Below are positions 5,983 through 42,631 of a stretch of 42,679 nucleotides of DNA, in pieces. The position numbers and the translations under genes are program-made. The notes below the pieces were generated by a model that had not been told where the DNA came from, made no database searches, and saw nothing but the letters and a program-made list of their open reading frames with translations. The DNA comes from Leptolyngbyaceae cyanobacterium CSU_1_3 (GTDB lineage Bacteria > Cyanobacteriota > Cyanobacteriia > Leptolyngbyales > Leptolyngbyaceae). Position 1 is the stretch's first letter. Every line of letters starts with the position of its first letter. The stretch is from the NCBI GenBank assembly GCA_012034655.1, contig JAAUOZ010000026.1, forward strand, positions 1-42,679. The letters are read 5' to 3'.

Positions 5983-6357
5983 ATGCTATTAGCTATGCCC
6001 AAGATCCTTTTAGTTGAAGATAATGAAATCAATCGAGATATGCTGTCTCGTCGGCTGGCGCGGCGGGGGTTTGATGTCATCGTCGCGATCGACGGCGCAC
6101 AAAGTATTACGATCGCCCAAACCGAACTTCCTGACCTGATTTTGATGGATATGAGCTTGCCCGTCTTAGACGGCTGGGAAGCCACTCGCCAGATCAAGTC
6201 TGCCCTGGCTACCCAAGATATTCCAGTGATTGCGTTGACAGCCCATGCAATGTCGGGCGATCGCGAAAAGTGTATAGATGCGGGGTGCGACGACTACGAC
6301 ACCAAACCCGTCGAGATGCCTCGACTGCTCGAAAAAATTCAGGGACTTTTGGGGTAG
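5983..6357 (+). CDS. Stand-alone CheY-like response regulator (receiver domain only)
   Basis: 124 aa with KILLVEDNEINRDML, the phosphoacceptor context LILMDMSLPVLDGWE, and a conserved T/K (ALTAHA...YDTKP). The start could instead be the internal Met at 5995. Confidence 0.85.
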   Translation: MLLAMPKILLVEDNEINRDMLSRRLARRGFDVIVAIDGAQSITIAQTELPDLILMDMSLPVLDGWEATRQIKSALATQDIPVIALTAHAMSGDREKCIDAGCDDYDTKPVEMPRLLEKIQGLLG

Positions 6358-6361
6358 CAGC

Positions 6362-15100: not shown

Positions 15101-17004
15101 ATGACGGAGTTTGCCATCAAAGTGCTACTGGTCGAAGATAACCCTGGGGATGTTCGGTTGCTGTTGGAAATCTTACAGGAAACCCCTCCCGATCAATTCA
15201 CAGTGACGCAGGTTGATCATTTAGAGAAAGCAATTAATTTGCTAACCGCCGAAAGCTTTGATGTCATTCTTTTAGATCTGACACTGCCCGACAGTATGGG
15301 TTTAGATACCTTCCTCAAACTTTACCGTCGAGCTTCAGCCATTCCGATCGTGGTATTGACGGGGTTAGACGATGAAACACTGACGCTTCGGGCAATGCAG
15401 GAAGGAGCGCAGGATTATTTAGTCAAAGGGAAGGTGACAGGCGATCTGGTATCTCGATCGCTGCGATATGCGATCGAGCGACAACGAGCAGAGCATAAAA
15501 TTCGCGAACAAGCAGCACTTTTAGACATCACAACCGATGCAATTTCGGTACGAGATCTACAACACAACATCGTATTTTGGAACCAAGGAGCAGAACGAGT
15601 TTTTGGGTGGCGAGCAGAAGAAGCGATCGGTCAAAATGCAGTTCAGCTACTCTATCGCAAATCTGAATTGCAATTAAAAGAAGCGATCAATGCAGTGATG
15701 GAACAGGGAAAATGGTTTGGTGAATTAAATAAAATCACAAAATCAGGGCAAGAAGTGATTGTTGAAAGCCGCTGGGCATTGGTAAGGGATGATGCAAAAC
15801 GGCCCAAGTCAATTCTCACTGTAGACACAGATATTACAGAAAAAAAACAACTGGAAGCGCAATTCTTTCGAGCACAGCGCTTAGAAAGTATTGGAACACT
15901 GGCAAGTGGCATTGCCCACGACCTAAATAATATTTTGACCCCAATTTTGGCGGCCGCGCAACTGTTGCCGCTCAAATTAAAAAACCTGGACGATCGTAGC
16001 CAACTTCTATTGCAACTTCTAGAGACAAACGCCAAACGGGGTGCAGACTTAGTTAAACAAGTGTTGTCGTTTACCCGTGGTGTAGAAGGCAAACGGATGG
16101 TTTTGCAAACGAGACATCTGATTGCAGAAATTGAGAAAATTCTACAGGAAACGTTTCCAAAGTCTGTCACGATCTACTCTAATATCGCCAAAGATTTGTG
16201 GACCGTATCGGGCGACAGTACACAACTGCATCAGGTGTTGATGAATCTATGCGTGAATGCGCGAGACGCGATGCTTTCGGGTGGGTTGTTGACCCTTTCT
16301 GCCCAAAATCAATGGCTCAATGAAACCGATGTGCGGATGAATTTTGAAGCGCGAGTCGGCCCCTATATTGTGATTAGCGTGGCTGACACTGGGATGGGAA
16401 TTCCGACGGCAAATTTAGAACGCATCTTTGAACCCTTTTTTACCACAAAAGACTTAGGCAAAGGCACAGGGTTGGGGCTGTCAACGGTCGTGGGAATTGT
16501 CAAGAGTCATGGGGGCTTTGTGACGGTGACGAGTCAGGAGGGAACTGGCACAGAATTTAAGGTATTTTGCCTGCGGTGATGGTAAGAGAGCCACAATCGC
16601 CCGATGAAAATGAGTTGCCCAAGGGTGCACACAGCCTAATTTTGGTGGTAGATGACGAAGCCCCCGTGCGAGAGAGCACGAGAATTTCACTTGAAAGCTA
16701 TGAATATCAGGTGCTAACTGCAAAAAATGGGCGAGAAGCGATCGACCTCTACGCCAAACATTGGCAGGAAATCAGTTTGGTTTTATTAGATCTGATGATG
16801 CCGTTAATGGACGGCCCCGCCACACTTCGCGTCTTGAAGCGTATCAATCCTGATGTGGAGGTTGTGGCAATGAGTGGGTTGTCTTCTAAAGGAATGGTTG
16901 CGGCAGCCGCAGGAGAGGGGATTCAACGATTTTGTCTAAGCCATTTACGGTTAAGGAATTGCTAGGCACGTTACAAGAGGTGCTGGTAGAGCAGGGTGAT
17001 TAGC
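15101..17004 (+). CDS. Hybrid histidine kinase REC-PAS-HisKA-HATPase_c-REC. Two apparent 1-bp frameshifts near 16565..16568 and 16929..16934.
   Basis: N-terminal REC is [14 protein letters not shown]...LLDLTLPD. The H-box is IAHDLNNILTPI. G-boxes are DTGMGI and GTGLGL. ORF 16567..16965 is a C-terminal receiver (LVVDDE...LLDLMMP). Its end is restored to the typical FLSKPFTVKELLGTLQEVLVEQGD by one T in CGATTTTGTC, and the junction with the ATPase by one T in GTATTTTGCC. Confidence 0.75.
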
Positions 17005-17499
17005 CCTTGCCCAGAAGCTCGAATTGTCACTATTGCTGGGGTTTATCAAATTTTCTCTAGCGTATGTTGTGGATGAGCCAAAAATGAGCCGTCATGAGCT
17101 ATCGAATTTGTGATATTGATAGTGACCTTTCAGAAAGGACACAGAAAAATAAGCTGAAACTGGCAAACCAAGACTGACAAGCATTTAGTAATGGTCTATT
17201 TTCTCCAACCTTTCCGAAATAGCACTATCGGATCTTGAAGCTATCAAAGTTCGTAGGGGAAAGCCATCATGCAATCTGCCACCTATTGGGTAAGGGGAGA
17301 TCGGGCTGGACGAGTCATCTATGCAAGCTGGAATTGGCTTTTTGGAAAACCTCCCTGGCATATTTTAGGAACTGAGTGAAAGCTTTGCTCAGCGATCATG
17401 GCGAAAACTCTGGGGTGGCGATGTCAATTGGCGAACTGCAACTGCTTTCGACAGTACAACAAACATGACTTTGTTCCGGTTCTTTAATCTAGAGGTTAA

Positions 17500-18309
17500 G
17501 TGATGTATAGAGTCAATTCTTTCGCCGTCAAGCCCTATCTTTTTGGGGGTGCGATCGTGCTCGTTAGCTACTTTTTACTCAATTCATTTGCTCTAATCAA
17601 TGCAGGAGAACGAGGAGTCGTGATGATCTTCGGAAAAGTACAGGACAACATACTAGACGAAGGACTTCACTTCAAAATTCCGCTTGTAACCTCAATTCGC
17701 CCCTTGACGGTAAGAGTCCAAAAAACCGAGATTTCAGCCACAGCAGGGACAAAAGATTTGCAGACTTTGGATATTGTACTGGCTTTGAACTGGCATATTG
17801 AGCCAAGCCAAGTCAATAAGATATTTCAGCGTGTTGGGGATGAAGCTCAAATCGTTGAGCAAATTATCAAGCCTGCAATTACCGAAAGCCTCAAAGCGTC
17901 AACCCCAAAACGGACAGCAGAGGAGATCTTGAAGCAAAGATCAGACCTGAAAGATGAAATTGATCAACAGATCAAAAATCGCCTTCAAACTTACGGGCTA
18001 GTAGTAGATGACGTTTCGCTGCTCAATATTTCCTTTTCAGCCGAATTCACTAAATCGATCGAAGCCAAGCAAATTGCCGAACAAGAGGCAAAACAGGCAG
18101 AATTCATCGCTCTAAAGGCGACCAAAGAAGCCGAAGCTGAAGTCAATCGCGCCAAAGGCCAAGCAGAAGCACAGCGTCTTTTGCGCCAAAATCTAACTGC
18201 TGAACTGCTGCAAAAGCAAGCGATCGACAAATGGAATGGTCAGTTTCCAACTGTGATGGGCGGCAATGGAGCGTTACCCCTGATCAATCTCGCCCCTCCA
18301 AAGCCCTAG
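17500..18309 (+). CDS. SPFH/band-7 (prohibitin-family) membrane protein
   Basis: N-terminal TM helix, then the SPFH core (GERGVVMIFGKV...LDIVLALNWHIEP) and an Ala/Glu-rich coiled-coil tail (AEQEAKQAEFIALKATKEAEAEVNRAKGQAEAQRLL). Confidence 0.85.
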   Translation: MMYRVNSFAVKPYLFGGAIVLVSYFLLNSFALINAGERGVVMIFGKVQDNILDEGLHFKIPLVTSIRPLTVRVQKTEISATAGTKDLQTLDIVLALNWHIEPSQVNKIFQRVGDEAQIVEQIIKPAITESLKASTPKRTAEEILKQRSDLKDEIDQQIKNRLQTYGLVVDDVSLLNISFSAEFTKSIEAKQIAEQEAKQAEFIALKATKEAEAEVNRAKGQAEAQRLLRQNLTAELLQKQAIDKWNGQFPTVMGGNGALPLINLAPPKP

Positions 18310-18341
18310 GTTTTGGCAAAGAAAACGTAACTACTCAAGTC

Positions 18342-18394
18342 CGCCCTCACCCCCAACTCCTCTCCCGCCCTAGGAGAGGGCTAGGGTGAGGGCG
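18342..18394. repeat. Nested G/C-rich palindromic element (CGCCCTCACCC..CCTCTCC..GGAGAGG..GGGTGAGGGCG), probably a bidirectional terminator between convergent genes
   Basis: Outer 11-bp and inner 7-bp inverted repeats. It sits between the ends of gene 17500..18309 (+) and gene 18452..20094 (-). It belongs to the same family as 1..28 and 40366..40459. Confidence 0.55.
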
Positions 18395-18451
18395 AGACGT
18401 TGCACTTTATTTAATTCGCATTCCTAAGTTTGAGGAAAGTTGCACATCGCG

Positions 18452-20094
18452 TTATTTGTTGTTTAGCAGTTGTTGAATATCGATGTTTGTAGGTAGGTCG
18501 CCTTTGCGTAGAATTGAGATCCAGCGTTGTTGTTGGGCTTTGCGTTGAGGATTGTCTGTGCTGCTGAGAGAGGCTTGCAGGTCGGTGATTGCTCCGGGTC
18601 GATCGCCCGCGATCGCTCTGGCAATGCCTCGACTGTTTTGGTAATTGGCAAATTCTGGGGTTGGTGAGAAGGCAACAGCTTTTTCGCAGGCATCCATCAC
18701 GTCTGTTGCTTGTTGGTGTAGACTGCCAAACCAGCAGAGTGTATTCCAGGAGCGGGCAGAAACTTTGAGCGTGGGAGCCAGCAATTTGGCTCGATTGAAG
18801 TGGGCGATCGCTGTTTGAATGTCTCCTTTTCTGGCAGATTCTTCGCCTGTGTGGATGAGGGCAGTTGCCGCTAGTTGTTGAGCTTTGAGCCTAGGATCGA
18901 TATTCAAATCAGTACCGAGTTTTTGAGCGGTCTGAAATTTCGCGATCGCACCTTCGATGTTGTCTGCCTGAGCCAGTTTTTCACCTTCGGCAATCAAGCG
19001 TTTCCCTTCTCCGCGATCGGCAAGTTTTTGAGCGGTTGTCTTTGGGTTTAGAGCCAGTTGAGCATTCCATTTCTTTGCCTGTTGAAATTGTACGATCGCA
19101 GCATTCACATCTCCACTTTTTGCCAGTTCTTCTCCGCGTGCAATTAGCATTGAAGAGGCTTGACTCAGAAGGATGGGGGTTTGGCAGACTGTAATCTCTT
19201 CTAGCGTTTTAGGATGATTGAGTAAGTGGTTGTTTAACTGATCGCAAATCCCAGCTATAGAGCGATCGTAATCCAACAACTTTGTTGATTCTTTTTGCTT
19301 TGCATCGGATGTAACTTTCTGCATTTTTTGCACAGTCAAGCGAACTCGATCTTGGGTTTCAACATTAACCCAGGCGGCAGATTGAATTAAACTTGCAGCT
19401 TTTGCAGCAGAGAGCCGTGCATCTAGATTTTGGTCAGATTGCATTAATGCATTCGCAGCAGTATTGAGTGCTTGAATTTCATTAACTTTTGCGGTTCTAT
19501 AGTTTTGTTCTAGGGTTTGGTATTGTCGCAATGCGAAGGCTCCCAATCCTATAGTGATCGCCAAACTACTGACTAAAGTAGCTAAAACGGCATTTGTTAA
19601 GGGACGATTTTTTGATGGCGATCGATTGGGCTGTAATCGACTTCAGACTCTGATATAGTTTGACCTTCAACCTCAGATTGATCACTCGCAATCATGGGAT
19701 GTAAATCAGCTTCAACCATTTGCACCAGCGATCGTGCCACCCCTTGCACACCCGTTTGATCTTGAACAAGCAACCACTGATGTGCTCTCAAAGTTGGGTA
19801 AAGCCGATCTGGGTCAAAATCCTTTCGCACCACGATCGAGATCAAAGGCCGGTGAGCATGAACAGCATGGGCGATTGTGTGACAACAAGTTTGGGAAGCG
19901 ATCGCATCTGAACTAATAACAAACACAACTTTGTCGGCTGTCTCAATGTTCGCTTTGAGCGTTTGCCAATCTAAATGAGGTGAATTATCTTGCCAGTCTA
20001 TGCACACATCCCACTGCTGCTGGCTCAGTGCTGCACCCAACTCCTGAACAAATTCTCTATCTTGAAGCGCGTAGGATACGAAAATCTTGGTCAT
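18452..20094 (-). CDS. TIR-domain / transmembrane / TPR-repeat protein, a single gene after repair of an apparent 1-bp frameshift near 19608..19613
   Basis: ORF 19597..20094 is a TIR-like domain (KIFVSYALQDREFVQEL...KVVFVISSDAIASQ). ORF 18452..19564 (TTG start) is an Sel1/TPR-like repeat region (repeated G.hp.A.p.F..A.p). One extra A in the A6 run CAAAAAATC fuses them through a contiguous hydrophobic helix NRPLTNAVLATLVSSLAITIGLGAFAL. The 32-nt gap between the ORFs has no promoter-like features. Confidence 0.6.
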
Positions 20095-20562
20095 TGTACT
20101 ATCATCGCACTATGTTTATTTCAACGATCGTTTCAACAAGCTATCTCAATCTACTGTGTAGCACCTGTTTCGCCGAGTTTGGTAAGCAATCCGGAACGCT
20201 CAAGTAACTTCACAATCAAGCCATTTTTTTAATTCAAAATGACAAACTGCTAGTGGTTGTTCTCTAGTAGCTTGTCAGTCGCGATCATGCTTTAGATAGA
20301 TGGAATCGTTGGGCGAGTTCTAACTCTGGTGCGGTTCAGCCCCTCTCTTAAGGTAGGCACGAAACTGCATCCAAGATTGCTAGAGTGAGCCTATCGAAAA
20401 CCGAGAACACAAACCAAAAGCGTTTTCGACCAAAGCTCAGACTTGGGCAAAGGGCAACAAGGTCAACATATTGTGGAGTATGGATCACAATAAGTCCCTC
20501 CGATGATTCGTTTAGACAGAACCTCGGAACACGAACACTAAACTTAGTAAAGGAAAAGAACA

Positions 20563-20835
20563 ATGGGAATTCTAGCTTGGATTGTATTAGGACTGATTGC
20601 AGGGGCGATCGCAAAAGCAATCTACCCAGGTCATCAGGGCGGTGGCATTCTAGGAACAATGGTCTTGGGTATTGTGGGTGCATTCTTGGGTGGAACACTT
20701 TATACGGTCTTGACCACTGGAACGTTAGCTCTAGGTTCGGCTGGGTTGAGCCTTGGGGGCATTGTTGTAGCAGTGTTGGGTGCAATTCTCGCCTTGTTTC
20801 TCTACTATGCATTCACAGGTCGGAATGCTTACTAG
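20563..20835 (+). CDS. GlsB/YeaQ/YmgE-family (transglycosylase-associated) small membrane stress protein
   Basis: 90 aa with the canonical MGILAWIVLGLIAGAIAK...GGILGTMVLGIVGAFLGG sequence. AAGGAAAAG lies upstream of the ATG. The antisense and same-strand ORFs of 154 and 157 aa overlapping it are spurious. Confidence 0.85.
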   Translation: MGILAWIVLGLIAGAIAKAIYPGHQGGGILGTMVLGIVGAFLGGTLYTVLTTGTLALGSAGLSLGGIVVAVLGAILALFLYYAFTGRNAY

Positions 20836-20974
20836 AATCTCTACCTGATGGTCTTTAAGCTTGAATGACTGAATTCTAGAATCATTGAATTCTGAATGCT
20901 CGCCTCTACTAACGTGGGGGCGATTTGCTATAGATAGACAGTTGCAATGCATTATATTGCCGCTAACATAATTA

Positions 20975-21006
20975 TGCTTTCCTATATACATGCTTTCCTA
21001 TATACA
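20975..21006. promoter_or_regulatory. Perfect 16-bp direct repeat TGCTTTCCTATATACA x2 upstream of the urate-catabolism operon. It is a candidate operator and contains TATATA -10-like hexamers.
   Basis: Directly visible, about 225 nt upstream of the hpxO-like start at 21231. Confidence 0.35.
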
Positions 21007-21230
21007 AGTAGAAAGACAAGAGAGAACGCCAGCTAAATCTCCAACTTTTTAACCAACATTTTTACTCAACACCAGCCTTGTTCTTTTGTGGTTATCTAAG
21101 AAAATCTGTATCTAAAATCACAGCAATTTCTAAAACCTTCGTCAAAAGTATATCCTATACACGTAGGAGCCTCACCGTTGGCAACCATGCTACAAGTTCG
21201 ATCGTTATCATTCCGCTCAGAGGGGCAGAC

Positions 21231-22394
21231 ATGAATAATCTGAAGATTGTGATCATTGGAGCGGGCATGGGCGGACTGTGTACAGGGATCGCTCTCCGTC
21301 AGGCTGGGTATCAAGTTGAAATCTTCGATCGCGTCAAAGAACTGCGTCCCGCCGGGGCTGGAATTTCTCTCTGGTCAAATGGCGTAAAAGTGCTAAATCG
21401 CCTAGGTCTGAGCAAAAAAATTGCCTGCATCGGCGGCCAAATGGAGCGGATGCAATACTATAACCATAAAGGCGAATGTTTGACTGACTTTAGCTTGTCT
21501 CCGCTGATCGAAAAAGTTGGGCAACGCCCCTACCCAGTAGCCCGCACCGATCTACAACAAATGCTATTAGAAGTGTTTGGGGCAGACCAGGTACATTTAA
21601 ACTCTAAGTGTGTCGCAGTAGAACAGGAGCACGATCGGGTCACTGCCATCTTTGAAGACGGGCGCAGAGTGGCAGGCGACCTACTGATTGGCGCAGATGG
21701 AACTCACTCAAAACTGCGCGAGTATGTGCTGGGATGCCCCACCGAACGCCGCTATGTTGGCTACGTCAATTGGAATGGACTCGTGCCTGCTAGCGAAGAT
21801 CTAGCCGCAAAAGATAGCTGGGCAATCTATGTTGGCGAACACAAAAGAGCTTCTATGATGCCCGTCGGCAACGATCGCTTCTACTTCTTTTTTGATGTGC
21901 CGCTACCCAAAGGAACCGTGAGCCAGCCAAAACAACACCGCGAAGAATTAATGAGTTTCTTCAAGGGCTGGGCAACACCCGTGCAAGCCCTCATCCAGCG
22001 TCTTGATCCCCTACAAACTAATCGGGTTGAGATTCATGATGTCGAGCCGTTAAACCAATTTGTGCGCGGCCGAGTCGCTTTGCTAGGAGATGCAGCCCAC
22101 AGCACGGCCCCCGATTTGGGGCAAGGGGGATGCCAAGCGATCGAGGATGCAGAAGTCATTACTCGCTATCTGCAAACTACAACCTTGAGCGTAGAAGATG
22201 CCCTAAAGCGATATGAAGCTGAACGCAAGAATCGAGCAAACGATATCGTTCTCAAGGCACGCAAGCGATCAGATATGACACACGGCAAAAATCCAGAAAA
22301 AACGCAGCAGTGGTATGAAGAACTTAAACAAGAGAATGGTAGTAACATCATAAATGCGATCGCGAATACGATTCTTGCAGGGCCAATGCATTAG
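21231..22394 (+). CDS. hpxO: FAD-dependent aromatic-ring monooxygenase, probably an HpxO-type FAD-dependent urate hydroxylase
   Basis: GAGMGG dinucleotide-binding motif ([17 protein letters not shown]), a DG motif ([13 protein letters not shown]) and [15 protein letters not shown]. It is about 387 aa from the ATG at 21231, with GAGGGG upstream. The function is assigned from its position directly upstream of the HIU hydrolase and OHCU decarboxylase genes. Confidence 0.7.
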
Positions 22395-22501
22395 CTCCTC
22401 TATCAGGCAGATTCTCCAAGGATCGTGGATTATTAACTTGGCAACTCAAGATCCGTCAGGCACAATTCAGCAAAACCCAAAACTACTTGCTTAGAAAGTC
22501 T

Positions 22502-22870
22502 ATGGCTGATCACCCCTCTGGTAAACTGACGACTCACGTTCTCGACACGGCTCATGGCTGCCCAGCAGCAAACTTGACGATCGAACTCTGGGCGATCGCC
22601 CCCCAAACCAGAACCCTGCTCAAAACACTGACAACAAATGCGGATGGTCGCACCGACACACCTCTGCTCATGGATGCTGAGTTTAAACTTGGGCGCTACG
22701 AGCTTGTGTTTGCAGTGGGCGAATATTTTATTCAAAAAAATGTTGAGTTGCCAGAGATTCCGTTTCTCGATCGCATTCCGATTCAGTTTGGTATTGCCGA
22801 CCCGACTGGTCACTATCACGTTCCTCTATTGGCTTCTCCGTGGTCTTATAGCACCTATCGAGGCAGTTGA
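22502..22870 (+). CDS. hiuH: 5-hydroxyisourate hydrolase (transthyretin-like)
   Basis: Canonical family signature, including the C-terminal YRGS and [19 protein letters not shown]. About 122 aa from the Met at 22502. Confidence 0.85.
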
Positions 22871-22871
22871 T

Positions 22872-23372
22872 ATGGCTTCTTATACGATCGCCCAACTCAA
22901 TCGCATGAGCCAAGAAGAATTTGTTGAGGCACTGGGAGCTATTTTTGAGGAAACACCTGCGATCGCAGAACAAACCTGGCATTGCAAACCATTCACAGAT
23001 TTTACAGATCTATATCAGAAAATGATTACGATCGTGAATGCAATGACGCAGCCACAACAATTGGCCCTGATTCGATCTCACCCCGACTTGGGAAGTAAGA
23101 CAAAAATGGCAGAAGCCTCTGTACAAGAGCAGTCTGGACTAGGGCTAAATCGGCTCACACCTGATGAATACGCCCACTTTCAAGAACGCAACCAGTCCTA
23201 CAAAGCTCGATTTGGCTTTCCCTTTATTGTGGCTGTCAAAAATCACACGAAGGCCAGTATTTTAGAAGCATTCGATCGACGATTGCAAAGTTCATTCGAG
23301 ACAGAAATCACAGAAGCATTAACAGAAATTTCTGAAATTGCTCGATTTCGCTTAAGAGATCTGATTGTGTAA
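22872..23372 (+). CDS. uraD: OHCU decarboxylase (2-oxo-4-hydroxy-4-carboxy-5-ureidoimidazoline decarboxylase)
   Basis: The ATG overlaps the hiuH stop (TGATATG). Typical motifs are LIRSHPDLG and ARFGFPFIVAVKN. 166 aa. Confidence 0.8.
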   Translation: MASYTIAQLNRMSQEEFVEALGAIFEETPAIAEQTWHCKPFTDFTDLYQKMITIVNAMTQPQQLALIRSHPDLGSKTKMAEASVQEQSGLGLNRLTPDEYAHFQERNQSYKARFGFPFIVAVKNHTKASILEAFDRRLQSSFETEITEALTEISEIARFRLRDLIV

Positions 23373-24167
23373 GTATGAATTGTGCGATCGCCGCACCGTC
23401 AGCATGGCTCTGATGCAACTTTTGCAAGCCTGACCTTTAAGGGGCTTGCAAAAAAATAGAATCCCTCGCTGCATTGTCCGTGAGTGCTGAGGAATCGAAT
23501 ATCATCCGCCTTCTTGATAAAGTTTCTTGCGAGACAACAATGCTACATGGGTCTATTTTGGGGGTTTCACCTTCGATCGCGCTGGAAATTTTCATTGATT
23601 TTCTGCAAGGAAATTAGGGCGCGAGGGTTGAGTGAAGTTGAAACCCGATTCTCTAACAAATGATGCTTGCGCTTGGGCCATCCTGCCCCGGCTGCTCAGT
23701 CCTGAAGGGACTTGCACAGTTAGCCCAAACTTCCAGTTCAGGGTGAGAATGAATCGCAGTGAGCCGCCTGATACAAGATCTAAGTAGACCCGCAAGACAG
23801 TAGGTTTTGACCAGAAATCGATTTAACTTTAACCAACGCAATGTCAATGAAATTTCTTCTCAAAAAGCTTTTCTTCATTACATAATTTATCTCTCAAGTT
23901 TAACTCCCAATGTGAGTTTCAAAGAATGCAGGGAACCATAGGCCTTAGAAACAGCACCTCCAGTGCCAGAAGGGTTGTCTCAGTACCTATGAATTGTATT
24001 AATTTCTTTGATACTCACTCTGAAGAAACTTGATTATTTTTGCAGAAATTGAGTCTTAGAGAAATTGGAATTAGGCAGCAGAAGAAATTCTGTATCAAAG
24101 ATTACATTGTCGTTGCTCTATTTATTTCGAGATTCTAGAAGTCATTCATTTGCTAAGGAGAAAATCC

Positions 24168-27100
24168 GTGCTTAAGCTTACCAATTATGAGATCCAGGAA
24201 AAAATTTATGAAGACTACAAAACGATCGTCTATCGAGGATGCCGGAAGCACGATCGTAAGGCAGTCGTCTTCAAAACCCTCAGAGGAAGTTATCCATCTT
24301 CTGAGGAAATTGCTAGGGTTCGGCATGAGTATGAAATTACCAAAAATTTAGATTTAACAGGAATTGTTAAACCTTGCGGTTTAGAAAAATATAATGGCTT
24401 AGCGATCGTGTTTGAAGACTTTGGCGGGAAATCGCTTAATCACTTTCTTGCTAAAAATCGACCCAATCTGAGTACGTTTCTAAACATCGCAATTCAGCTT
24501 GTGAAAACGCTAGGCAAGCTGCATGAAAGAAACATTATCCATAAAGATATTAAACCGCTCAACATCATTTTCAATTCTAACGATGGCCAAGTTAAAATCA
24601 CTGATTTTGCTAACGCTTCGCTGCTTTTGCAAGAAAACCAGGCGGTGATTCATCCCCATCTACTAGAAGGCACTTTAGCCTATATGTCGCCTGAGCAAAC
24701 AGGTCGCATGAATCGCCCGATCGACTATCGGACAGATTTCTATTCTATGGGAGTTACCCTCTATGAAATGCTGACGGGGCAACTCCCATTTTATGCAGAA
24801 GATGCAATAGAGCTAATCCATTACCATTTGGCCAAGCAGCCAATTGCTCCCCATTATCTTAAGTCAGAAATCCCATCAATTTTGTCTGATATTGTCATGA
24901 AGTTGATGGCTAAAACGGTAGAAGATCGATACCAAAGTGCCTATGGAATTCAATATGACTTAGAGATCTGCCTGGGGCAATTGCAAAAAACTGAGCAGAT
25001 CGAACCTTTTGTTTTAGGTCAAAAAGATATCTCAGCAAAATTTCAAATTCCTCAGTGGTTATATGGGCGAGATCGAGAACTTCAAGTACTAGTTGAAGCC
25101 TACGATCGCATTAGCCGAGGCAGCACCGAAATGATTTTGGTTGAAGGGTATTCTGGAGTAGGAAAGTCAACGCTGGTGCGAGAAATCTACAGGTCTCTCA
25201 GCACGTTGCGACACTCCGAAGGAAGGGTGCAGCAGAGTGGATACTTTGTGAGCGGCAAATTCGATCAATTTAAGCACAATGTTCCCTATGCTGGTTTAAT
25301 TCAGGCATTTCAAGAATTGATTCGGCAGATCTTGACTGAAGGCGAAGCCCAAATCAAAGCCTGGAAAGAAAAAATTCTAGCTGCGATCGGCTCCAATGGG
25401 CAGGTGCTCATTGATGTGATTCCTGAAGTTCAACTGATTATCGGAGCACAACCTGCCATTGCTTGCTTGGCTCCTACAGAAACGCAGAATCGATTTAAGC
25501 TAGTTTTTCAGCAATTTCTGAATGCATTGACTGGCAAAGATCATTCACTTGTTCTATTTCTCGACGACCTGCAATGGGCAGACTCAGCCTCGTTGAATTT
25601 GATTCAACTGGTGATGGCTCCCTCAACTCAGGCATCGCTACTCGTGATAGGTGCTTACCGAGACAACGAAGTGAGTCATTCTCATCCATTAACATTAACG
25701 CTTGACGCAATTCGACAACTGGGAACTGAGATCATCACGCTGAGCTTAGCGCCCCTCAGTCTTGCTGATGTCAACCAGCTACTTGCTGATACGTTGCACC
25801 GCGACCCCTTGGCTTGCCAACCGCTCTCTGAGTTGCTGCTAACTAAAACAAGCGGCAATCCTTTTTTCTTAGCTCAAACGTTGACAACGCTTTATCAAGA
25901 GCGGCATTTATCGTTTGATGCTCAGACAGGTTGTTGGCAGTGGAATCTGGCTCAGATTCAAGAATGGGGATCACCGATAATGTGGTTGAGTTGATGGTCA
26001 GCAAGATTCAGAAATTATCTGAACCAACGCAGAATGTTTTAAAGCTTGCCGCCTGTATTGGAAACTGTTTTGATTTAGGGTTCCTATCGATCGTCAATCA
26101 AAAGTCTCTATCTAAGACCGCAGAAGAGTTGTGGGAGGCTTTGCAAGAAGGTTTAATTTTGCCAACCAGTGAGATTTATATGTTTGTTCAAGATCAGCCA
26201 GTGATGGGTGATGAGTTGCAAACCATAACACAAAATGAATCGCTGAAAATTACCTACAAATTTCTCCACGATCGTGTCCAGCAAGCAGCCTATTCATTGA
26301 TTGCTGATGATCAAAAGCAACCGACCCATCTCCAGATTGGGCGGCTACTGTTGCGCCATACGCCAGTGGCCACCAGAGAAGAAGTCATTTTTGATCTGGT
26401 CAGCCACTTTAATATTGGGGCTGATCTGATCGTGCATCAGTCAGAACGATATGCCGTCGCCGAATTAAATTTGGTGACGGGTCGTAGGGCAAAAGCGGCC
26501 ACTGCCTACGAAGTTGCTGTTCGCTGCTTAAGTGCGGGTCTGAAGTTGTTGCCTGAAGAAAGCTGGCAGTTGAACTATCACTTAACGCTGTCGCTGCATC
26601 TAGAAGCGCTGGAAGCGGAATACTTGAACACTCGGTTTGAGCAAGCAGAGAAATTGGCTGCTATTGTGCTGCACAATGCACAAGAACTGTTGGAAAAAGT
26701 CAAAGTGTATGAGATTAAAATTCAGTTTCATATCTCCCAAAATCAGCAATTAGCCGCGATCGAGACTGCTTTAGAAATTCTCAATCTTCTCGGCGAACCG
26801 TTAGTTCAGGAAGCACCCCAAGACATTGTGGTTGAAGACTTGATTCTTCTTCCTAAAATGACAAACCTGTGCAAGATCGCTGCAATGAAGATTTTAACAT
26901 TGCTCATGCCGCCTGCTTTGTTTGCAAGACCCGCTTTGTTGCCCTCGATCGCCTATGCAATGGTCAATCTCAGCGTTGAGTATGGTAACTCAGCCACCAG
27001 TGCTTATGGTTATGCGTTCTATGGGTTAATTTTGTGCAGCGAAAAAGAGATCGAACGCGGCTATAAATATGGCCAGTTAGCAATGCAAGTGCTAGAGCAA

Positions 27101-29641
27101 TTTGACGCTAAAGAACTGCACAGCAAAATTATCAATGTCTTTAATGTCTTCATTCGCCATTGGAAAGAGCCAGTTCGCCATACGATTAAGCCACTTCAGG
27201 AAGGAATTCAAGTTAGCTTTGAAACGGGAGATATTGAGTATGCGTGCTATAACGCAATTTCCTACTGCACCTATCGCTTTTTTAGCGGAGAAACCCTAGA
27301 AACGGTTCAGCAACAGCAGCATATTTATATCGATTTGTTGCTCAAGCTAAAACAGGAGTATTCAACCTATTTTCTGCAAATTGGGAAGCAACTGGTCTGC
27401 AATCTCATGGGTCAAGCGTATGATAAGTTTCGCTTGATCGGAGAAGATTTTAACGAAGAAGAGGCGATTCCTGCTTTGATGGAGTCTAATAATTTTACGC
27501 TACTTTTCTTTGTTTATCTTGCCAAAACGATTTTGCTATATTTCTTGCAAGACTATCAGCAAGCGATCGTTTATGCCAGACTCGCTGAACAGTATGCAGA
27601 CAGCATGATTGGCTTTATGCACGTACCCGAACTAAATTTCTACACGTCACTCACCTTATTGGCACTCTGCACAACAGCTACCACAGATGAGAAGACGCAA
27701 TATTTAGACCAGGTGCAACGCAATCAAGTGCAAATGCAAGAATGGGCAACTCATGCGCCTGCAAATTATCAACATAAGTTTGATTTAGTCGAAGCCGAAA
27801 GAGCGAGAATTGGTGGACAAATCCTTGAGGCAATGGAATTGTACGATCGAGCAATTTTGGGCGCACAAACAGAGCACTATCTACAAGAAACTGCATTGGC
27901 ATATGAGCGGGCTTCAGAGTTATATGAAGGGTGTGGTCGGGCACAAATCGCTCAGTTTTATCTTGAAGAAGCTTGCCGTGTCTACGATTCTTGGGGGGCT
28001 ACTGCCAAGATTCAAGCCTTAGAGGCAAAGCATTCACAACTCAAGCTAATTGCCCGTAACCTTCCGATGAATGCTGGGGAGGTTCTTCCTACAACAAGTT
28101 CAGTTGTGAGCGATCACCTGGTGAGCCTAGACTTGACCACGATCGTCAAAGCGTCTCAAGCGATCGCAGGTGAGATTGTTTTGAGCAAACTGCTGGATAA
28201 ATTACTTAAAATTGTCATGGAGAATGCAGGTGCTCAGTCTAGTTGTCTAATTTTGCAAAAGAACGGACAACTCGTAGTCGAGGCAACCACTTCAATTGAG
28301 CAAGGCAAAGTTAGTTTACATCCTTCACTACCGATCGAGACTAGCCAGACGTTACCCGTGTCGTTGCTCTACTATGTTGCTAGAACACAAGAAAATCTTG
28401 TTTTAGCCAATGCAATGTGCGAAGAGAGGTTTATTTCAGATCCATACCTGGTTAACCACCGGCCAAAATCTGTTTTATGTGCGCCTATTGTCAATCAAGG
28501 TAAGCTCATTGGTCTGCTGTATTTAGAGAATAATCTCATGATCGGTGCTTTCAACCCAAATCGTCTAGAAGTGCTGAAAATTCTCTCGGCTCAGGCAGCA
28601 ATCTCGATCGAAAATGCTCTCCTCTATGCCAACTTGGCGACAGCAACAGATAGCCTAAAGAAAGCGAATAGTCAATTAGAAGACTATAGCCGTACCTTAC
28701 AGCAGAAAGTTGCCGAACGAACGCTAGAGTTGCAAGAAAAGAATCAAAAACTAAATCAACAAACCACCCAAACTGAATTAGCATTGCACGAGCTAAAGAG
28801 AACTCAGATACAACTCATTCAATCTGAGAAGATGTCAAGCTTGGGGCAGCTAATAGCAGGCATTGCCCACGAGATCAATAACCCCATTAACTTTGTCTAT
28901 GGCAACATTGAATATGTCAATGAGTATATGCAAGAAGTTCTTCATCTACTGCGGCTATATCAGCAGCACTGTTCGCAGCCAATTTTCGCGATACAAGAGA
29001 AACTAGAGGAGATTGACCTCAATTTTCTGCTAACCGATTTCCCAAAAACCCTTGCCTCAATGAAAGTTGGAGCAGAGAGAATTCGGGAGATTGTCAAGAG
29101 CCTACGAAATTTCTCACGTCTAGGTGAGTCAGAGAGCAAAGAGGTCAATATTCACGAAGGCATCAATAGCACTTTGCTGATACTAGAGAATCGCCTGAAA
29201 GAGAAGTTGAACTGTCCTGGTATTCAGGTTGTTAAAGAATATGGTGAACTGCCCATAGTCGATTGTTATGCGGGGCAACTAAACCAAGTGTTTATGAATT
29301 TGATCAGCAATGCGATCGATGCCTTGGGCGAGCGCGATGTCTCAGAAATTCAAGCTCAACCCAGTACGATTTACATTTCTACAGAGGTATTCAACGATCG
29401 TCGTTGGGTCAGAATTTCCATTCGAGATAATGGCAATGGAATATCTGAAGAGTTGCAACATCGTTTGTTTGATCCATTTTTCACCACAAAACCCGTTGGC
29501 TATGGCACAGGGCTAGGGTTATCTATCAGCTACCAGATTGTGGTTGACCAACACAAAGGTCAGTTGAAATGTTTATCAAAACCTGGGCAGGGCGCAGAGT
29601 TTGTGATCGAGATTCCGGTTACACAAGCCTTGTCCACCTAG
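24168..29641 (+). CDS. Giant multidomain signalling protein: Ser/Thr protein kinase, AAA/NTPase, TPR-like helical region, GAF, HisKA and HATPase_c. Apparent 1-bp frameshift near 25962..25966.
   Basis: AAGGAG lies 7 nt before GTG 24168. Kinase motifs are HKDIKPLN, DFA and SPEQ. P-loop is GYSGVGKST. ORF 25931..29641 continues directly (QIQEMGITDNVVEL if one A is added in CAAGAATGGGG). Later features are a GAF (about 28100..28620), the H-box AHEINNPINF and G-boxes DNGNGI and GTGLGL. Confidence 0.75.
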
Positions 29642-29697: not shown

Positions 29698-32600
29698 CTA
29701 CGATCGAGGCGCTTCTAAGAAACCGTTTTGAATAAAGTAGGAGAAGTAAACCTGTAGCAATTCATCGTTGACGGGTGGGCAAACAATGCCTGTATCTGTC
29801 AAAGCGGCACTAGTATTTTGGCAATCTAGATAGGGGTGATATTGGTATAGCTCCGGTAAAGTTAGCTCTTGATACATCTTTTCTACCTGCATTGGCACTA
29901 GTGGATACAAAGCATTCTCTTGAGAGTATCGTGTATGCTGTAGCAGGCGATCTTTCCACTGATCGTAGGGTAGTTTTTCTACAAAGTAACCGTAATCATT
30001 GATCTGTTGAAAGAATTCCAGAAACTTCTGGGGATGAGGATTTACAACGTGGAAGATTTGTCCTAGTGATTGTTCTTGACGAGAGAGGTGAACGATCGCT
30101 TTACTAGCGTAGTCGATCGGCACAAAGTATTCATGCTTGTTCGGTAGGTCAGGGTAGCATCCGAGTTGAATGCAGCCTTTGATCAATCGAGATGCATAAT
30201 CTTTGGTGTTGGTAATTCCCGTTTGGCTATGTCCTAAGATTAGTCCGGGTCGGAAAATGGTCACGGGTATGCCTCTTGAGCGTGCCGTATGCATCAGTTT
30301 TTCTGCCACCCACTTACTTTGTGAGTATCCCAGAAACAGAATATCTTCACTCGGATCAAGGTCATCGTCTTCATACAAAGCAGACATGCGATTGAAGTAG
30401 CCAGTCGCCCCAAATACAGAATCTGTTGAAATATAATGTACTGTCTTGGTTTGGCTCTGACACGCCAGTTTGAGGATTTCTTGAGTACCTAAAACATTGG
30501 CTGCTTTCATCAAAGAATAGGGCTTGACGAAGTTAACCAATGCACCGTTGTGGTAGATCGTATCAATTTGATCAGCCAACAGGTTGAACTGTTCTGGTGA
30601 TACTCCTAACAATGGTTGAGACAGATCTCCAGGAATAGGAACGATACGATCGCGATAACGCTCATCCCACAATGAATATTGTTCTAACGTTTGTTGTAGT
30701 CTAACTGCACCATCACTGGAGCTAGAACAACGAACCAGACAATAAAGGGTTGCCTGAGTCTGCTGAAGTAACTCATGCACCAAGAAGGCTCCCAAGAACC
30801 CAGTGGCTCCCGTGAGGAAGACATTTTGAGGATTGCTAACGGGAACGATCGCCGGCCCACTTGGGTAAATATCTGATGCCAATACTGCATCGCCTTTGAG
30901 GTCAAGCGTTTTCGTTAAAGCAGCAACACTGTCTACGCCATCTCGCTGTAAGGCTTCTAAGGTTTGGGCAAGACCTTCGATCGTCGGATACTCAAACAGC
31001 AAGCGCACAGGTAACTCGACCTGAAACTCTTCTCTGATGTAAGAAATCAGGTGTGCTGCCAGTAATGAATTGCCACCCAAATAGAAGAAATCATCATGAA
31101 TGCCCAAGTCTTTAATACCCAGCACGGCAGACCAGAAGTGAGCAACCTGCTGTTCCATCAGAGTTCGAGGTGCGATGAAGGTTGATTCTAACTCAGGTCG
31201 AGCATCGGGGAGGGGCAAGGCACGATGATCGACTTTGCCGTTGATGGTGAGTGGCAATGTTTCCAACACAACGAACGCTGAAGGAATCATATATTCCGGT
31301 AATTTCTGCTGAAGGAATCGACGCAGATCGGAAGTGGCTAATGTTCCCTTGGAGGTCAGGTATGCTACCAGTCGCTTATCAGTTGGGATATCTTCTCGAA
31401 CAATGACCACACATTCACTCACATTGGAATAATGCTGAATTGCGGACTCCACATCGCCTAGTTCGATCCGAAAACCGCGAATTTTCACCTGATTGTCGAT
31501 GCGTCCCAAATATTCAATATCGCCATTGGCAAGCCGACGCGCCAGATCTCCTGATTTGTAGAGGCGTGTCTTGGGGCAAAAGGGATTTTCGATAAACCGT
31601 TCAGCCGTTAGCTCTGGGCGATTTAGATAGCCTCTTGCTAACCCTGCGCCACCAATATGCATTTCTCCGGGTACACCGATCGGGACAAGTTGCAGATTTT
31701 GATCCAGCAAATAGACCTGAAGATCAGGAATAGGTTGCCCGATCGCGCTGCCTGCATTGAGGTCTGCGATCGTAATCGGTCGATAGGTCACATGGACAGT
31801 CGTTTCGGTGATGCCATACATATTCACTAGCTGAGGGGTTCGATCTCCGTGGCGATCAAACCAAGATTTTAAGCTTTGCAGTTCCAACGCTTCGCCCCCA
31901 AAGATCACAAAGCGCAATGCTAGATCATCAGAAACGCCAGATAGTTCTTCGGTTCGCATCAGTTGTCGAAAGGCAGAAGGCGTTTGGTTCAGTACTGTGA
32001 CTTTTTCGCTGCATAACAACTTGTAGAAGGAATCTGGCGATCGACCCACACAATGCGGCACAATTACCAACCGTCCGCCATGCAACAATGCACCCCACAG
32101 TTCCCACACCGAGAAATCAAAAGCATAAGAGTGGAAGAGTGTCCAGACATCGTGCTTGTTGAATTGGAACCAAGCCTGAGTTGAGCTAAACAGCCGCATC
32201 ACATTGGAGTGATTGATCAGCACTCCTTTGGGTTTGCCTGTTGAGCCAGAGGTGTAGATCACGTAGGCGAGCGTGTCAGCATTGAGAATACGCCCAGGAG
32301 ATGTAGTAGGAAGTGCGGCGATCGTATCCCCATCTGTATCTAAACAAACGGCTTGAGCGGATGTTTTGGGCAACCGTTGCTGCAAATCAGATTGCGTAAC
32401 TACTAAGGCTGCATTCATATCTTCGACAATGCCCGCCAAGCGTTCTGGTGGCGATGCCGGATCGAGGGGAACATATGCACCGCCTGCCTTCAGAATTCCC
32501 AGAATGGCGACAACCAAATTGAGAGAGCGATCGACACATAGCCCTACTAAACTATCCGGTTTGACCCCCAAGTTTTGCAGGTGATGGGCCAACTGATTTG

Positions 32601-42417: not shown

Positions 42418-42631
42418 TGTTTGAGGTAAGGGTAGGGGAGCTTCTAAAGATTGAGAGGCTAGAGAAGAAAGGTATAGAAAATCGAGAGACTTTTGAGCTT
42501 GATCATAAAAGACGTGGCACGAGGGATGCTCCCCAATAAGAGTGCCCCTAATACTTTCAACAATCTCTCTCAAATTCTAATTTAGGCAGACGGCTCTTGG
42601 TTTTCTGGCTCTTTAGCCAATTGCAGCACTT

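What the first reader, a model, noticed from the sequence alone, without database searches (positions are those of the whole stretch)
18452..20094. TIR domain fused through a single transmembrane helix to a TPR/Sel1-like repeat array
After repair of the A6-run shift, the TIR-like ORF and the downstream TTG-start TPR ORF form one protein. The inferred junction is itself a clean hydrophobic helix (LTNAVLATLVSSLAITIGLGAFAL), which supports the fusion. Bacterial TIR domains are best known as NADase effectors in antiphage systems such as Thoeris and other TIR-containing abortive-infection proteins. This architecture (TIR, one TM helix, a long repeat array with no NTPase) does not match the standard ones. 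The usual WxxxE-type catalytic glutamate position appears to be replaced (SQTCCHTIAHAV), so it may be a non-catalytic scaffold.
Basis: partly seen in the sequence, partly recalled or inferred. Interest (0 to 1): 0.55.

Follow-up and report, generated by a model that had tools for sequence, protein, structure and literature searches.

The report
Glu-less TIR membrane protein, split by error
The two open reading frames are one 547-residue cyanobacterial membrane protein (inside: a TIR domain that has lost its catalytic glutamate; then one membrane helix; then a TPR-like repeat module), and the split is a one-base assembly error; it is a cut-down, probably non-enzymatic relative of a common but unstudied family of TIR-membrane-WD40-TPR proteins.

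Summary
On the minus strand, a TIR ORF (19597-20094) and a TPR ORF (18452-19564) are separated by one missing base in an A6 run (19608-19613).

A sister assembly of the same population has A7 there. The two assemblies differ by 0 substitutions and 6 one-base indels in 4.6 kb. At least six other genes in the window are split in the same way, so the shift is an assembly artefact.

The protein has these parts:
- a TIR domain (Pfam 59 bits; AlphaFold and Foldseek match SPARTA, AbTir and SARM1);
- a disordered linker;
- one transmembrane helix and a helical stalk;
- a TPR-like solenoid (pLDDT 93).

The nearest relative (54% identity, Phormidesmis) and about 20 others are TIR-linker-TM-WD40-TPR proteins of 820-1300 aa. 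This protein lacks their juxtamembrane linker and the whole WD40 array.

Its TIR is strongly diverged: 24 of 53 conserved positions are changed, and the catalytic Glu is Thr73. The TPR module is normally conserved.

The most likely reading is a non-catalytic, truncated paralogue acting as a regulator or scaffold, or a gene drifting towards loss. SPFH adjacency is not conserved in relatives. Interest is modest.

The parts
18452..20094 (-). Whole gene: 547 codons plus stop once one A is restored in the A6 run. It is annotated here as two CDS: NJR49187.1 (165 aa TIR) and NJR49186.1 (359 aa, HC780_06070).
19702..20094 (-). TIR domain, aa 1-131. It has a five-strand beta/alpha fold.
   Evidence: Pfam TIR_2 59.1 bits. 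A family profile hits Cat1, TLR, MyD88, AbTir and SARM1 in the PDB. AlphaFold pLDDT is about 80-90 with strands 3-7, 29-32, 55-60, 84-89 and 106-110. Foldseek hits SPARTA TIR-APAZ, AbTir (TM 0.77), SARM1 and RPS4.
19876..19878 (-). Codon ACA = Thr73, at the position of the TIR catalytic glutamate (WxxxE column).
   Evidence: Glu in 21/21 relatives and in SARM1 in the alignment. The column is listed as nearly invariant E73. It aligns to the Glu of the WCxxE motif of Cat1 and TLR. Changing a Glu codon to ACA needs two base changes.
19601..19701 (-). Acidic, disordered linker, aa 132-165. It replaces the conserved juxtamembrane helical module of the family (HTRLL.RA.EW...LLRG..L..A..WL...EP..T..Q..YI..SR).
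   Evidence: AlphaFold pLDDT <50 for residues 132-163. Alignment gap and non-homology against 16 relatives.
19608..19613 (-). A6 homopolymer (T6 on the plus strand) where one base is missing. The sister assembly has seven.
19529..19600 (-). Single transmembrane helix, aa 166-189: LTNAVLATLVSSLAITIGLGAFAL.
   Evidence: Kyte-Doolittle mean 2.04. Homologous to P0009 ATNAALIAVMSGLVIATGLGIFAF. It forms part of AlphaFold helix 166-219, pLDDT 87-95.
19289..19528 (-). Post-membrane helical stalk, aa 190-269. It ends in a 16-residue bridge (KMQKVTSDAKQKESTK) where relatives carry about 590 aa of WD40 repeats.
   Evidence: 53% identity to P0009 over the TM plus stalk columns (local BLASTP alignments give 47-53%). 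Helices 166-219, 223-239 and 245-269. No WD40 remnant in any frame.
18455..19288 (-). TPR-like alpha-solenoid module, aa 270-547. It includes the family's conserved C-terminal cap and four near-invariant cysteines (C284, C304, C454, C470).
   Evidence: 59% identity to the C-terminus of P0009. Pfam TPR_2 at aa 411-442. AlphaFold pLDDT 93, 15 helices. Foldseek hits SPINDLY TPRs, consensus TPR and P58IPK. Cys conserved in 67/68, 67/68, 144/145 and 143/145 sequences.
20109..20136 (-). Weak sigma-70-like -35/-10 match (TTGAAA-16-CATAGT) just upstream of the ATG.
   Evidence: The number of such sites is no greater than in shuffled sequence, so this is only a candidate.
18342..18394 (.). GC-rich hairpin between the convergent 3' ends of the SPFH gene and this gene. 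It is a probable bidirectional terminator or a repeat element.
   Evidence: Arms 18342-18352/18384-18394 are 100% complementary; inner arms 18352-18365/18373-18386 are 79% complementary.

Best explanation
Shown: the locus is a single gene for a 547-aa bitopic membrane protein, and the frameshift is a one-base homopolymer error of this assembly. The parts run in order: TIR domain (1-131), disordered acidic linker (132-165), one TM helix (166-189), helical stalk (190-269) and TPR-like solenoid (270-547).

Shown: it descends from the cyanobacterial family TIR / conserved juxtamembrane linker / TM / stalk / WD40 propellers / TPR module. Compared with that family it has lost most of the linker and all WD40 repeats.

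Shown: its TIR has evolved much faster than that of its nearest relative and has Thr in place of the catalytic Glu. The C-terminal TPR module is conserved about as well as in other members.

Inferred: the TIR faces the cytoplasm and the stalk plus TPR module faces the periplasm (N-in/C-out).

Inferred: in the parent family, the outside repeats sense or bind something and cluster the inside TIR domains, which then cleave NAD+.

Inferred: this protein can no longer cleave NAD+. It most likely survives as a non-enzymatic partner, that is a regulator, decoy or scaffold. It would still use its TPR module, membrane helix and stalk, and perhaps its TIR surface, to associate with Glu-bearing TIR-TM proteins of the same genome. 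At least one such protein, P0204, appears to exist.
For: One gene, artefactual shift:
- P0156 (NJK53180.1) is identical to the repaired protein.
- The sister contig differs from the window by 0 substitutions and 6 one-base indels, including T7 against T6 at 19607/19608.
- Each assembly breaks different genes. SPFH is intact here but split in L008.
- Six other genes in the window are split by one-base shifts, mostly one base missing in an A or T run.
- Homology to P0009 runs straight across the junction.

Descent from the WD40 family:
- The exhaustive HMMER search gives P0009 as the best relative (1180 aa, 54% identity).
- All TIR+TPR hits checked among the top 150 carry WD40.

Degenerate TIR:
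- Thr73 against Glu in 21/21 relatives.
- 24 of 53 conserved TIR columns are changed, against 0-5 in core members.
- TIR identity to 13 outgroups is 32-41%, against 48-68% for P0009.

Conserved TPR module: 4 of 32 conserved columns are changed, against a family mean of 3.0.

Folds.

Topology:
- K/R are richer on the N-side of the TM in most relatives.
- The four cysteines of the C-terminal module are near-invariant.
- The same TIR-linker-TM cassette is fused to a Cache/PDC-like part in P0166, although that match is sub-threshold.

Still under selection: a 547-codon ORF stays open in only 2-8% of neutral point-substitution simulations at 8-12% extra amino-acid change.

Possible partner: P0204 (NJR48483.1) falls in the same accession block as this MAG's NJR49186/7. 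It is a TIR-linker-TM protein with the Glu intact.
Against: - No experiment bears on function, and no read data were available.
- No close orthologue other than the identical sister copy was found, so purifying selection cannot be measured directly.
- Loss of the linker, the WD40 array and the Glu together is also what early gene decay looks like.
- The K/R balance around this protein's own TM is 3:3, so it says nothing about orientation.
- The Cache-like match in P0166 is below Pfam thresholds.
- Assigning P0204 to the same MAG rests only on the accession block and a truncated name.
- No canonical WD40-bearing paralogue was shown in this genome.
Confidence: 0.55

Rival explanations
1. A decaying remnant. 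The gene is an intact-looking but functionless leftover of a TIR-TM-WD40-TPR paralogue. It has lost its sensor propellers, coupling linker and catalytic residue, and is drifting towards loss.
For: - About 590 aa of WD40 and most of the juxtamembrane linker are deleted relative to every relative.
- Glu is replaced by Thr, and 24 of 53 conserved TIR positions are changed.
- All three regions are somewhat accelerated relative to P0009.
- The family sits in tandem paralogue arrays that suggest rapid birth and death.
- This protein is a singleton with no close orthologues.
Against: - The true sequence has no frameshift and no stop in 547 codons.
- The neutral simulation makes an open ORF unlikely at this level of divergence: 2-16% depending on assumptions, with indels not counted.
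- The C-terminal module is as conserved as in bona fide members.
- AlphaFold models both halves confidently.
Confidence: 0.27
2. A genuine frameshift giving two separate products: a soluble 165-aa TIR protein and a 359-370-aa TPR protein. They would work as a two-gene TIR/TPR pair like the reported Bacillus cereus BcTir/BcTpr defence operon.
For: - The window as assembled reads this way, and NCBI annotated two CDS.
- A two-gene TIR + TPR antiphage system has been described (bioRxiv 10.1101/2023.05.26.542521).
Against: - The sister assembly, identical at every substituted position, has the intact ORF.
- One-base indels are rife in both assemblies and break housekeeping-type genes such as YlmH and SPFH.
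- The downstream ORF would have to start at a TTG inside, or just after, the TM helix.
- BcTpr carries an N-terminal glycosidase domain that is absent here.
- An A6 run with no X XXY YYZ heptamer is a poor programmed-frameshift site (sequence).
Confidence: 0.04
3. An active NAD+-cleaving abortive-infection effector. The TIR still hydrolyses NAD+ through another residue when the TPR module senses phage or envelope damage.
For: - The TIR fold is intact.
- There are weak partial matches to PADLOC ThsB models, best 28.9 bits.
- TIR domains are common defence effectors (general knowledge; context).
Against: - The catalytic Glu required in all characterised TIR NADases is Thr.
- Many other family-invariant TIR residues are lost.
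- There is no ThsA, SIR2, SLOG or other defence gene nearby. The neighbours are SPFH, two-component genes, a small membrane protein and urate-catabolism genes.
- Relatives' loci are paralogue arrays, not defence islands.
Confidence: 0.06

Closest known systems
Cyanobacterial TIR-linker-TM-WD40-TPR proteins. Examples: Phormidesmis sp. 146-12 WP_446871423.1 (P0009), Oscillatoria sp. FACHB-1407 WP_190512234.1 (P0015), Lyngbya sp. HA4199-MV5 MBW4693561.1 (P0012). They are annotated only as 'TIR domain-containing' or 'WD40 repeat' proteins, and I know of no experimental work on them.
   Same: - N-terminal TIR_2 domain.
- Homologous TM helix and post-TM helical stalk (about 47-53% identity to P0009).
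- Homologous C-terminal TPR module with the conserved cap and four cysteines (59% identity to P0009).
- No NTPase.

   Different: - Lacks most of the conserved juxtamembrane linker and the whole WD40 array, about 590 aa.
- The catalytic Glu is Thr, and the TIR is far more diverged.
- It stands alone rather than in a tandem paralogue array.

Other TIR-linker-TM proteins with different outside parts. Examples: P0215 (561 aa, TIR-TM-7 classical TPRs), P0193 (Phormidesmis TIR-TM-TPR), P0166 (Cache/PDC-like), P0204 (same MAG, coiled coil plus unknown domain).
   Same: The overall plan is TIR inside, one TM helix, then a repeat or sensor module, with no WD40 and no NTPase. This shows that a TIR-TM-TPR layout is not unique.
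   Different: Those proteins keep the juxtamembrane linker and the catalytic Glu. Their TPRs are classical 34-residue repeats unrelated to the WD40-associated TPR module found here.
TIR NADases (SARM1, AbTir, SPARTA TIR-APAZ, Cat1, ThsB)
   Same: The fold. These are the Foldseek and profile matches.
   Different: No catalytic Glu. The protein is membrane-anchored. There are no partner genes such as ThsA, Argonaute or CRISPR.
Animal Toll-like receptors and non-signalling TIR receptors such as SIGIRR (an analogy from general knowledge, not homology of the whole protein)
   Same: A single-pass membrane protein with a repeat solenoid on one side and a TIR on the other. SIGIRR-type members act as decoys or regulators rather than signal generators.
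   Different: The domain order is reversed (TIR at the N-terminus, type II orientation). The repeats are TPR/WD40, not LRR or Ig. The origin is independent. The regulator role here is only inferred.
BcTir/BcTpr two-gene defence system (bioRxiv 10.1101/2023.05.26.542521)
   Same: A TIR-containing product and a TPR-containing product from adjacent reading frames, if the window is read literally.
   Different: Here the two frames are one gene. There is no glycosidase domain on the TPR part, and no demonstrated homology.

Membership tests
TIR domain superfamily (Pfam TIR_2, PF13676) | Profile match above the curated threshold | tested here: met
   59.1 bits against a cutoff of 28, residues 4-111
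TIR domain superfamily (Pfam TIR_2, PF13676) | Flavodoxin-like five-stranded beta/alpha fold | tested here: met
   AlphaFold model. Foldseek hits AbTir (TM 0.77), SARM1, SPARTA and RPS4 TIRs at E of 1e-4 to 5e-6.
TIR NAD+ hydrolases (SARM1/AbTir/ThsB type) | Catalytic glutamate in the WxxxE position of helix alphaC | tested here: not met
   Thr73, against Glu in 21/21 relatives, SARM1, and the Cat1 and TLR alignments
TIR NAD+ hydrolases (SARM1/AbTir/ThsB type) | NAD+ cleavage activity | not testable with these tools
   Needs an enzyme assay
Thoeris (ThsA + ThsB) | A ThsA (SIR2, or Macro/TM plus SLOG) gene adjacent to the TIR gene | tested here: not met
   The neighbours within about 5 kb are SPFH, a histidine kinase with a response regulator, Transgly_assoc, an FAD monooxygenase, HIUase and OHCU decarboxylase. 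PADLOC ThsB matches are partial and weak, best 28.9 bits.
Cyanobacterial TIR-linker-TM-WD40-TPR family | N-terminal TIR followed by a homologous TM helix and helical stalk | tested here: met
   A continuous BLASTP alignment with P0009 over query residues 1-257, interrupted only by the linker deletion
Cyanobacterial TIR-linker-TM-WD40-TPR family | Conserved juxtamembrane linker (TDL.HV..HTRLL.RA.EW...LLRG..L...WL...EP..T..Q..YI..SR) | tested here: not met
   It is replaced by a shorter, non-homologous acidic segment with pLDDT <50
Cyanobacterial TIR-linker-TM-WD40-TPR family | WD40 beta-propeller array between the stalk and the TPR module | tested here: not met
   No WD40 Pfam hit. A 16-residue bridge stands where P0009 has residues 312-903, with no remnant in other frames.
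Cyanobacterial TIR-linker-TM-WD40-TPR family | C-terminal TPR module with the conserved cap (SWN.LCW.GSL...VM.ACEKAV...DSRG.ARA..GD..GAI.DF) and four cysteines | tested here: met
   59% identity to P0009. 28 of 32 conserved columns are kept. All four cysteines are present.
TPR repeats (Pfam clan) | At least one repeat above threshold, and a helical-hairpin solenoid | tested here: met
   TPR_2 34.3 bits against a cutoff of 27. AlphaFold pLDDT 93 with paired helices. TPR proteins top the Foldseek list.
Sel1-like repeats (PF08238) | Profile match | tested here: not met
   No Sel1 hit at E<=1 in the Pfam scan
SPFH-partnered membrane systems | Conserved, co-oriented adjacency to an SPFH/Band 7 gene | tested here: not met
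   The SPFH gene (17500-18309, plus strand) is convergent with this gene. No SPFH gene lies beside P0009, P0015 or P0012.
BcTir/BcTpr two-gene system | Two separate genes, with an N-terminal glycosidase domain on the TPR protein | tested here: not met
   There is a single ORF in the sister assembly, and only a TM helix and stalk precede the TPR part

The most novel reading that the evidence does not exclude
The protein may be a catalytically dead co-receptor or decoy within a family of bacterial single-pass 'TIR receptors' that have an outside WD40/TPR/Cache sensor and an inside TIR NADase. It would keep the outside TPR module and the membrane stalk to join Glu-bearing paralogues. It would then damp or tune their NAD+-cleaving output, much as SIGIRR or RRS1-type inactive TIR partners do in animals and plants.
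Probability: 0.2. Interest if true: 0.6.

Novelty: new variant of a known kind. Interest (0 to 1): 0.3.

Why it matters
For annotation: the two CDS in this MAG should be merged. The window's many one-base indels mean that every 'frameshift' or 'pseudogene' in it needs the same scepticism.

For biology: the parent family places a TIR NADase-type domain on the cytoplasmic side of a single membrane helix, with large repeat sensors on the other side. It occurs in tandem, diversifying arrays in filamentous cyanobacteria, and as far as I know it is experimentally untouched. It is a natural candidate for a bacterial receptor-type TIR system.

A naturally Glu-less, sensor-truncated member would be a handy probe. 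It could show whether such proteins work as oligomers and whether inactive partners regulate them. On its own, though, it is a modest finding.

Tried and rejected
- **Pseudogene because of the frameshift.** This was my working idea. I dropped it when the window proved full of one-base shifts and the sister contig gave the intact gene.
- **Programmed -1 frameshift or transcriptional slippage.** The run is only A6 and has no X XXY YYZ heptamer in frame. It is unnecessary given.
- **WD40 loss as a collapsed-repeat assembly artefact.** Rejected because no WD40 unit or remnant remains in any frame, and both assemblies agree.
- **SPFH as a functional partner.** Not conserved in relatives, and convergent in orientation.
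- **Thoeris or another defence island.** No partner genes are present.
- **Searches that gave little:**
  - The word-indexed protein search found almost nothing for this protein.
  - The genome-contig scan returned only Moorena TPR-module loci.
  - A PDB sequence search with the single TIR sequence was insignificant until a family profile was used.
  - The NCBIfam match (FabG, 18.8 bits against 273) is noise.
  - A literature search for the MAG name found nothing.
- **Technical dead ends:**
  - A MAFFT alignment mixing N-terminal and C-terminal fragments misaligned them (A2), so it was discarded and the two halves were modelled separately.
  - The assembly accession of the window could not be retrieved.
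Full report
**1. What is in the sequence**

The feature lies on the minus strand. A 165-aa ATG ORF (19597-20094) is followed by a 370-aa TTG ORF (18452-19564). Between them the minus strand reads CAT CAA AAA ATC GTC CCT TAA. The A6 run is T6 at 19608-19613 on the plus strand.

Adding one A gives a 547-aa protein whose junction reads HQKNRPLTNAVLATLVSSLAITIGLGAFAL. The two frames are simultaneously open for only about 14 codons, so any shift must lie there. The window is the whole 42,679-nt contig of the MAG 'Leptolyngbyaceae cyanobacterium CSU_1_3'. NCBI annotates the two pieces as NJR49187.1 (TIR, 165 aa) and NJR49186.1 (HC780_06070, 359 aa).

**2. Is the frameshift real? No.**

Three lines of evidence agree.

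(a) The 90%-identity cluster of the TIR ORF contains a second member, NJK53180.1 (P0156). It is 547 aa and comes from another Leptolyngbyaceae MAG. Its sequence is identical to the repaired protein, residue for residue.

(b) Its 4589-nt contig is L008 (JAAUUY010000261.1, GCA_012030915.1). It aligns to window 16946-21532 with no substitutions and six one-base indels. One of these is T7 against T6 at exactly this run.
- Each assembly breaks different genes.
- The SPFH gene is intact here, with a full-length Band_7 match, but is split into two ORFs in L008.
- The TIR-TPR gene is intact in L008 and split here.

(c) The window contains at least six more genes cut by one-base shifts:
- YlmH near 1445, at a T5 run.
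- A hybrid histidine kinase near 4255.
- A CHASE4-HAMP-HisKA-HATPase kinase near 7125 (A5) and again near 7735 (A4).
- A Pkinase-AAA_16-GAF-kinase near 25965.
- A further kinase near 41055.

In six of the seven sites, counting the TIR-TPR site itself, the reading that restores the domain needs one extra base, usually in an A or T run.

Homology also runs straight through the junction. This protein reads HQKNRPLTNAVLATLVSSLAITIGLGAFALRQYQT, and P0009 reads KQKKLRQATNAALIAVMSGLVIATGLGIFAFRQYQT. I had at first taken the shift as a sign of gene decay, and these results overturned that. A programmed shift is neither needed nor favoured, because the run is A6 with no slippery heptamer in frame.

**3. 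Anatomy of the 547-aa protein**

*TIR domain.*
- Pfam TIR_2 scores 59.1 bits against a cutoff of 28.
- A profile of the family's TIRs hits Cat1, TLRs, MyD88, AbTir, SPARTA and SARM1 in the PDB.
- AlphaFold with 14 relatives gives a five-strand beta/alpha domain (residues 1-128, pLDDT mostly 80-90). A disordered stretch follows (132-163, pLDDT <50), then a long helix (166-219) that contains the hydrophobic segment, then helices 223-239 and 245-269.
- Foldseek places the model with SPARTA TIR-APAZ, AbTir (TM 0.77 on the target), SARM1, RPS4 and BtpA.

*Transmembrane helix.* The hydrophobic segment is the only one above the usual TM threshold.

*C-terminal module.* Residues 257-547 model as 15 helices at pLDDT 93. 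They match TPR solenoids: SPINDLY, consensus TPR and P58IPK. Pfam finds one TPR_2 above threshold and no Sel1.

**4. Where it comes from**

An exhaustive HMMER search found 6027 relatives at E<=0.001. The best is P0009 from Phormidesmis (1180 aa, 54% identity). About 20 of the top 150 carry a TIR that matches this one. Most are complete proteins of about 820-1300 aa in which that TIR is at or near the N-terminus. Every one checked has WD40 repeats between the post-membrane stalk and the TPR module.

Against P0009, the TIR is about 50% identical, the TM plus stalk about 47-53%, and the TPR module 59%. Two blocks are missing here:
- Most of a strongly conserved juxtamembrane module (TDL.HV..HTRLL.RA.EW...LLRG...).
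- The whole WD40 array, P0009 residues 312-903. It is replaced by a 16-residue bridge with no WD40 trace in any frame.

An assembly collapse would have left at least one repeat, and the two assemblies agree, so the deletion is real.

**5. The TIR is degenerate; the TPR module is not**

- Thr73 (ACA) sits in the column that is Glu in all 21 relatives and in SARM1. I supplied the SARM1 sequence from memory, and its catalytic Glu is E642. The same column is the WCxxE glutamate in the Cat1 and TLR alignments.
- In a leave-one-out count, this protein departs from 24 of 53 highly conserved TIR columns. Core members depart from 0-5.
- Its TIR is 32-41% identical to 13 outgroups, whereas P0009's is 48-68%.
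- By contrast, the C-terminal 107 residues depart from only 4 of 32 conserved columns (family mean 3.0, sd 2.3).

So the lineage has relaxed or changed constraint on the TIR but kept the TPR module. A simple neutral simulation of point substitutions only keeps the 547-codon ORF open in 2-8% of runs at 8-12% extra amino-acid change. For the TIR alone at 20-30% change, the figure is 7-16%. This mildly favours continued selection over pure decay.

**6. Topology and family logic (inferred)**

- Most relatives have more Lys and Arg on the N-terminal side of the TM helix. This protein is balanced at 3:3.
- The C-terminal module has four near-invariant cysteines: 67/68, 67/68, 144/145 and 143/145 sequences. 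This would fit disulfides outside the cytoplasm.
- A profile search with the N-terminal half shows that the same TIR-linker-TM cassette is joined to other C-terminal parts:
  - Seven classical TPRs (P0215, 561 aa).
  - A Cache/PDC-like region, although below Pfam thresholds (P0166).
  - Unknown domains (P0204, P0222).

This fits a type II arrangement with the TIR inside and a sensor outside. It also shows that TIR-TM-TPR without WD40 or an NTPase already exists elsewhere. All of these other proteins keep the Glu and the linker.

P0204 (NJR48483.1) lies in the same accession block as this MAG's proteins. The genome therefore probably encodes at least one Glu-bearing TIR-TM protein.

**7. Neighbourhood**

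The gene is monocistronic:
- Its 3' end faces the 3' end of an SPFH/Band 7 gene across a GC-rich hairpin (18342-18394).
- Its 5' end diverges from a small Transgly_assoc membrane protein.
- The loci of P0009, P0015 and P0012 show tandem arrays of two or three TIR-TM-WD40(-TPR) paralogues and no SPFH gene.
- No ThsA-like or other defence gene is nearby.

**8. Most likely mechanism**

For the parent family I infer that outside WD40/TPR modules bind a ligand or partner and cluster the inside TIRs. These then cleave NAD+, as oligomerised TIR NADases do (established for SARM1, AbTir, SPARTA and Cat1).

This protein lacks the catalytic Glu, the coupling linker and the propellers, so it should not cleave NAD+ or sense in the same way. 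It keeps the TPR module, the stalk and the TM helix. Its most plausible role is therefore a non-enzymatic partner (regulator, decoy or scaffold) of Glu-bearing paralogues.

Estimated probabilities:
- Non-enzymatic partner, including the shown structural claims: about 0.55.
- Functionless remnant: about 0.27.
- Active NADase despite Thr73: about 0.06.
- Genuinely two proteins: about 0.04.

**9. Verdict**

However:
- The split is an assembly error.
- The intact protein is already in GenBank as a 'TIR domain-containing protein'.
- The architecture is a trimmed variant of a common, uncharacterised cyanobacterial family rather than a new kind of system.

Interest is modest (0.3). The more interesting object is the parent family of single-pass TIR proteins.

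Noticed in passing
window 1017-1795; 2198-5762; 6278-8324; 24150-29641; 40481-42573: At least six further genes are split by one-base frameshifts: YlmH near 1445, a hybrid histidine kinase near 4255, a CHASE4-HAMP-HisKA-HATPase kinase near 7125 and near 7735, a Pkinase-AAA_16-GAF-histidine kinase near 25965, and a kinase near 41055. Most sites lack one base in a short A or T run. This marks an indel-prone assembly, so 'pseudogenes' in this MAG should not be trusted.
   Followed up: partly
L008 1-4589 (= window 16946-21532, reversed): A sister-MAG contig is identical at every aligned base but differs by six one-base indels, at window positions 17902, 19607, 20458, 20617, 21414 and 21429. Its SPFH gene is split where the window's is intact. 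Each assembly therefore has its own private indel errors.
   Followed up: yes
L005 5843-11199; L006 1-9375; L007 1-9570: In Phormidesmis, Oscillatoria and Lyngbya, the TIR-TM-WD40-TPR genes sit in head-to-tail arrays of two or three paralogues. Neighbouring copies are about 47% identical between genomes. The pattern recalls diversifying receptor families.
   Followed up: partly
P0166, P0204, P0213, P0215, P0222 (proteins): The TIR + conserved juxtamembrane linker + TM cassette is a mobile N-terminal module. It is joined to varied C-terminal parts: classical TPR arrays, a sub-threshold Cache/PDC-like region, a coiled coil plus unknown domains. All of these keep the catalytic Glu.
   Followed up: partly
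window 18342-18394: A GC-rich hairpin lies between the convergent SPFH and TIR-TPR genes. The outer arms are 11/11 complementary, and the inner arms are 14 nt at 79%. It has no T-tract. It may be a bidirectional terminator or a dispersed repeat.
   Followed up: no
window 21078-23372: An FAD-dependent monooxygenase, an HIUase/transthyretin-like protein and an OHCU decarboxylase lie in a row. This looks like a urate-to-allantoin degradation cluster.
   Followed up: no
window 29698-39879 (minus strand): Two large non-ribosomal peptide synthetase genes. One is A-T-C-A-T (1799 aa) and the other is C-A-T plus a terminal reductase (1484 aa).
   Followed up: no
window 18452-19288 (aa 284, 304, 454, 470): The WD40-associated TPR module has four cysteines conserved in more than 98% of about 70-145 homologues. 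This suggests two disulfides or a metal site. The distances could not be measured because model coordinates are not exposed.
   Followed up: partly
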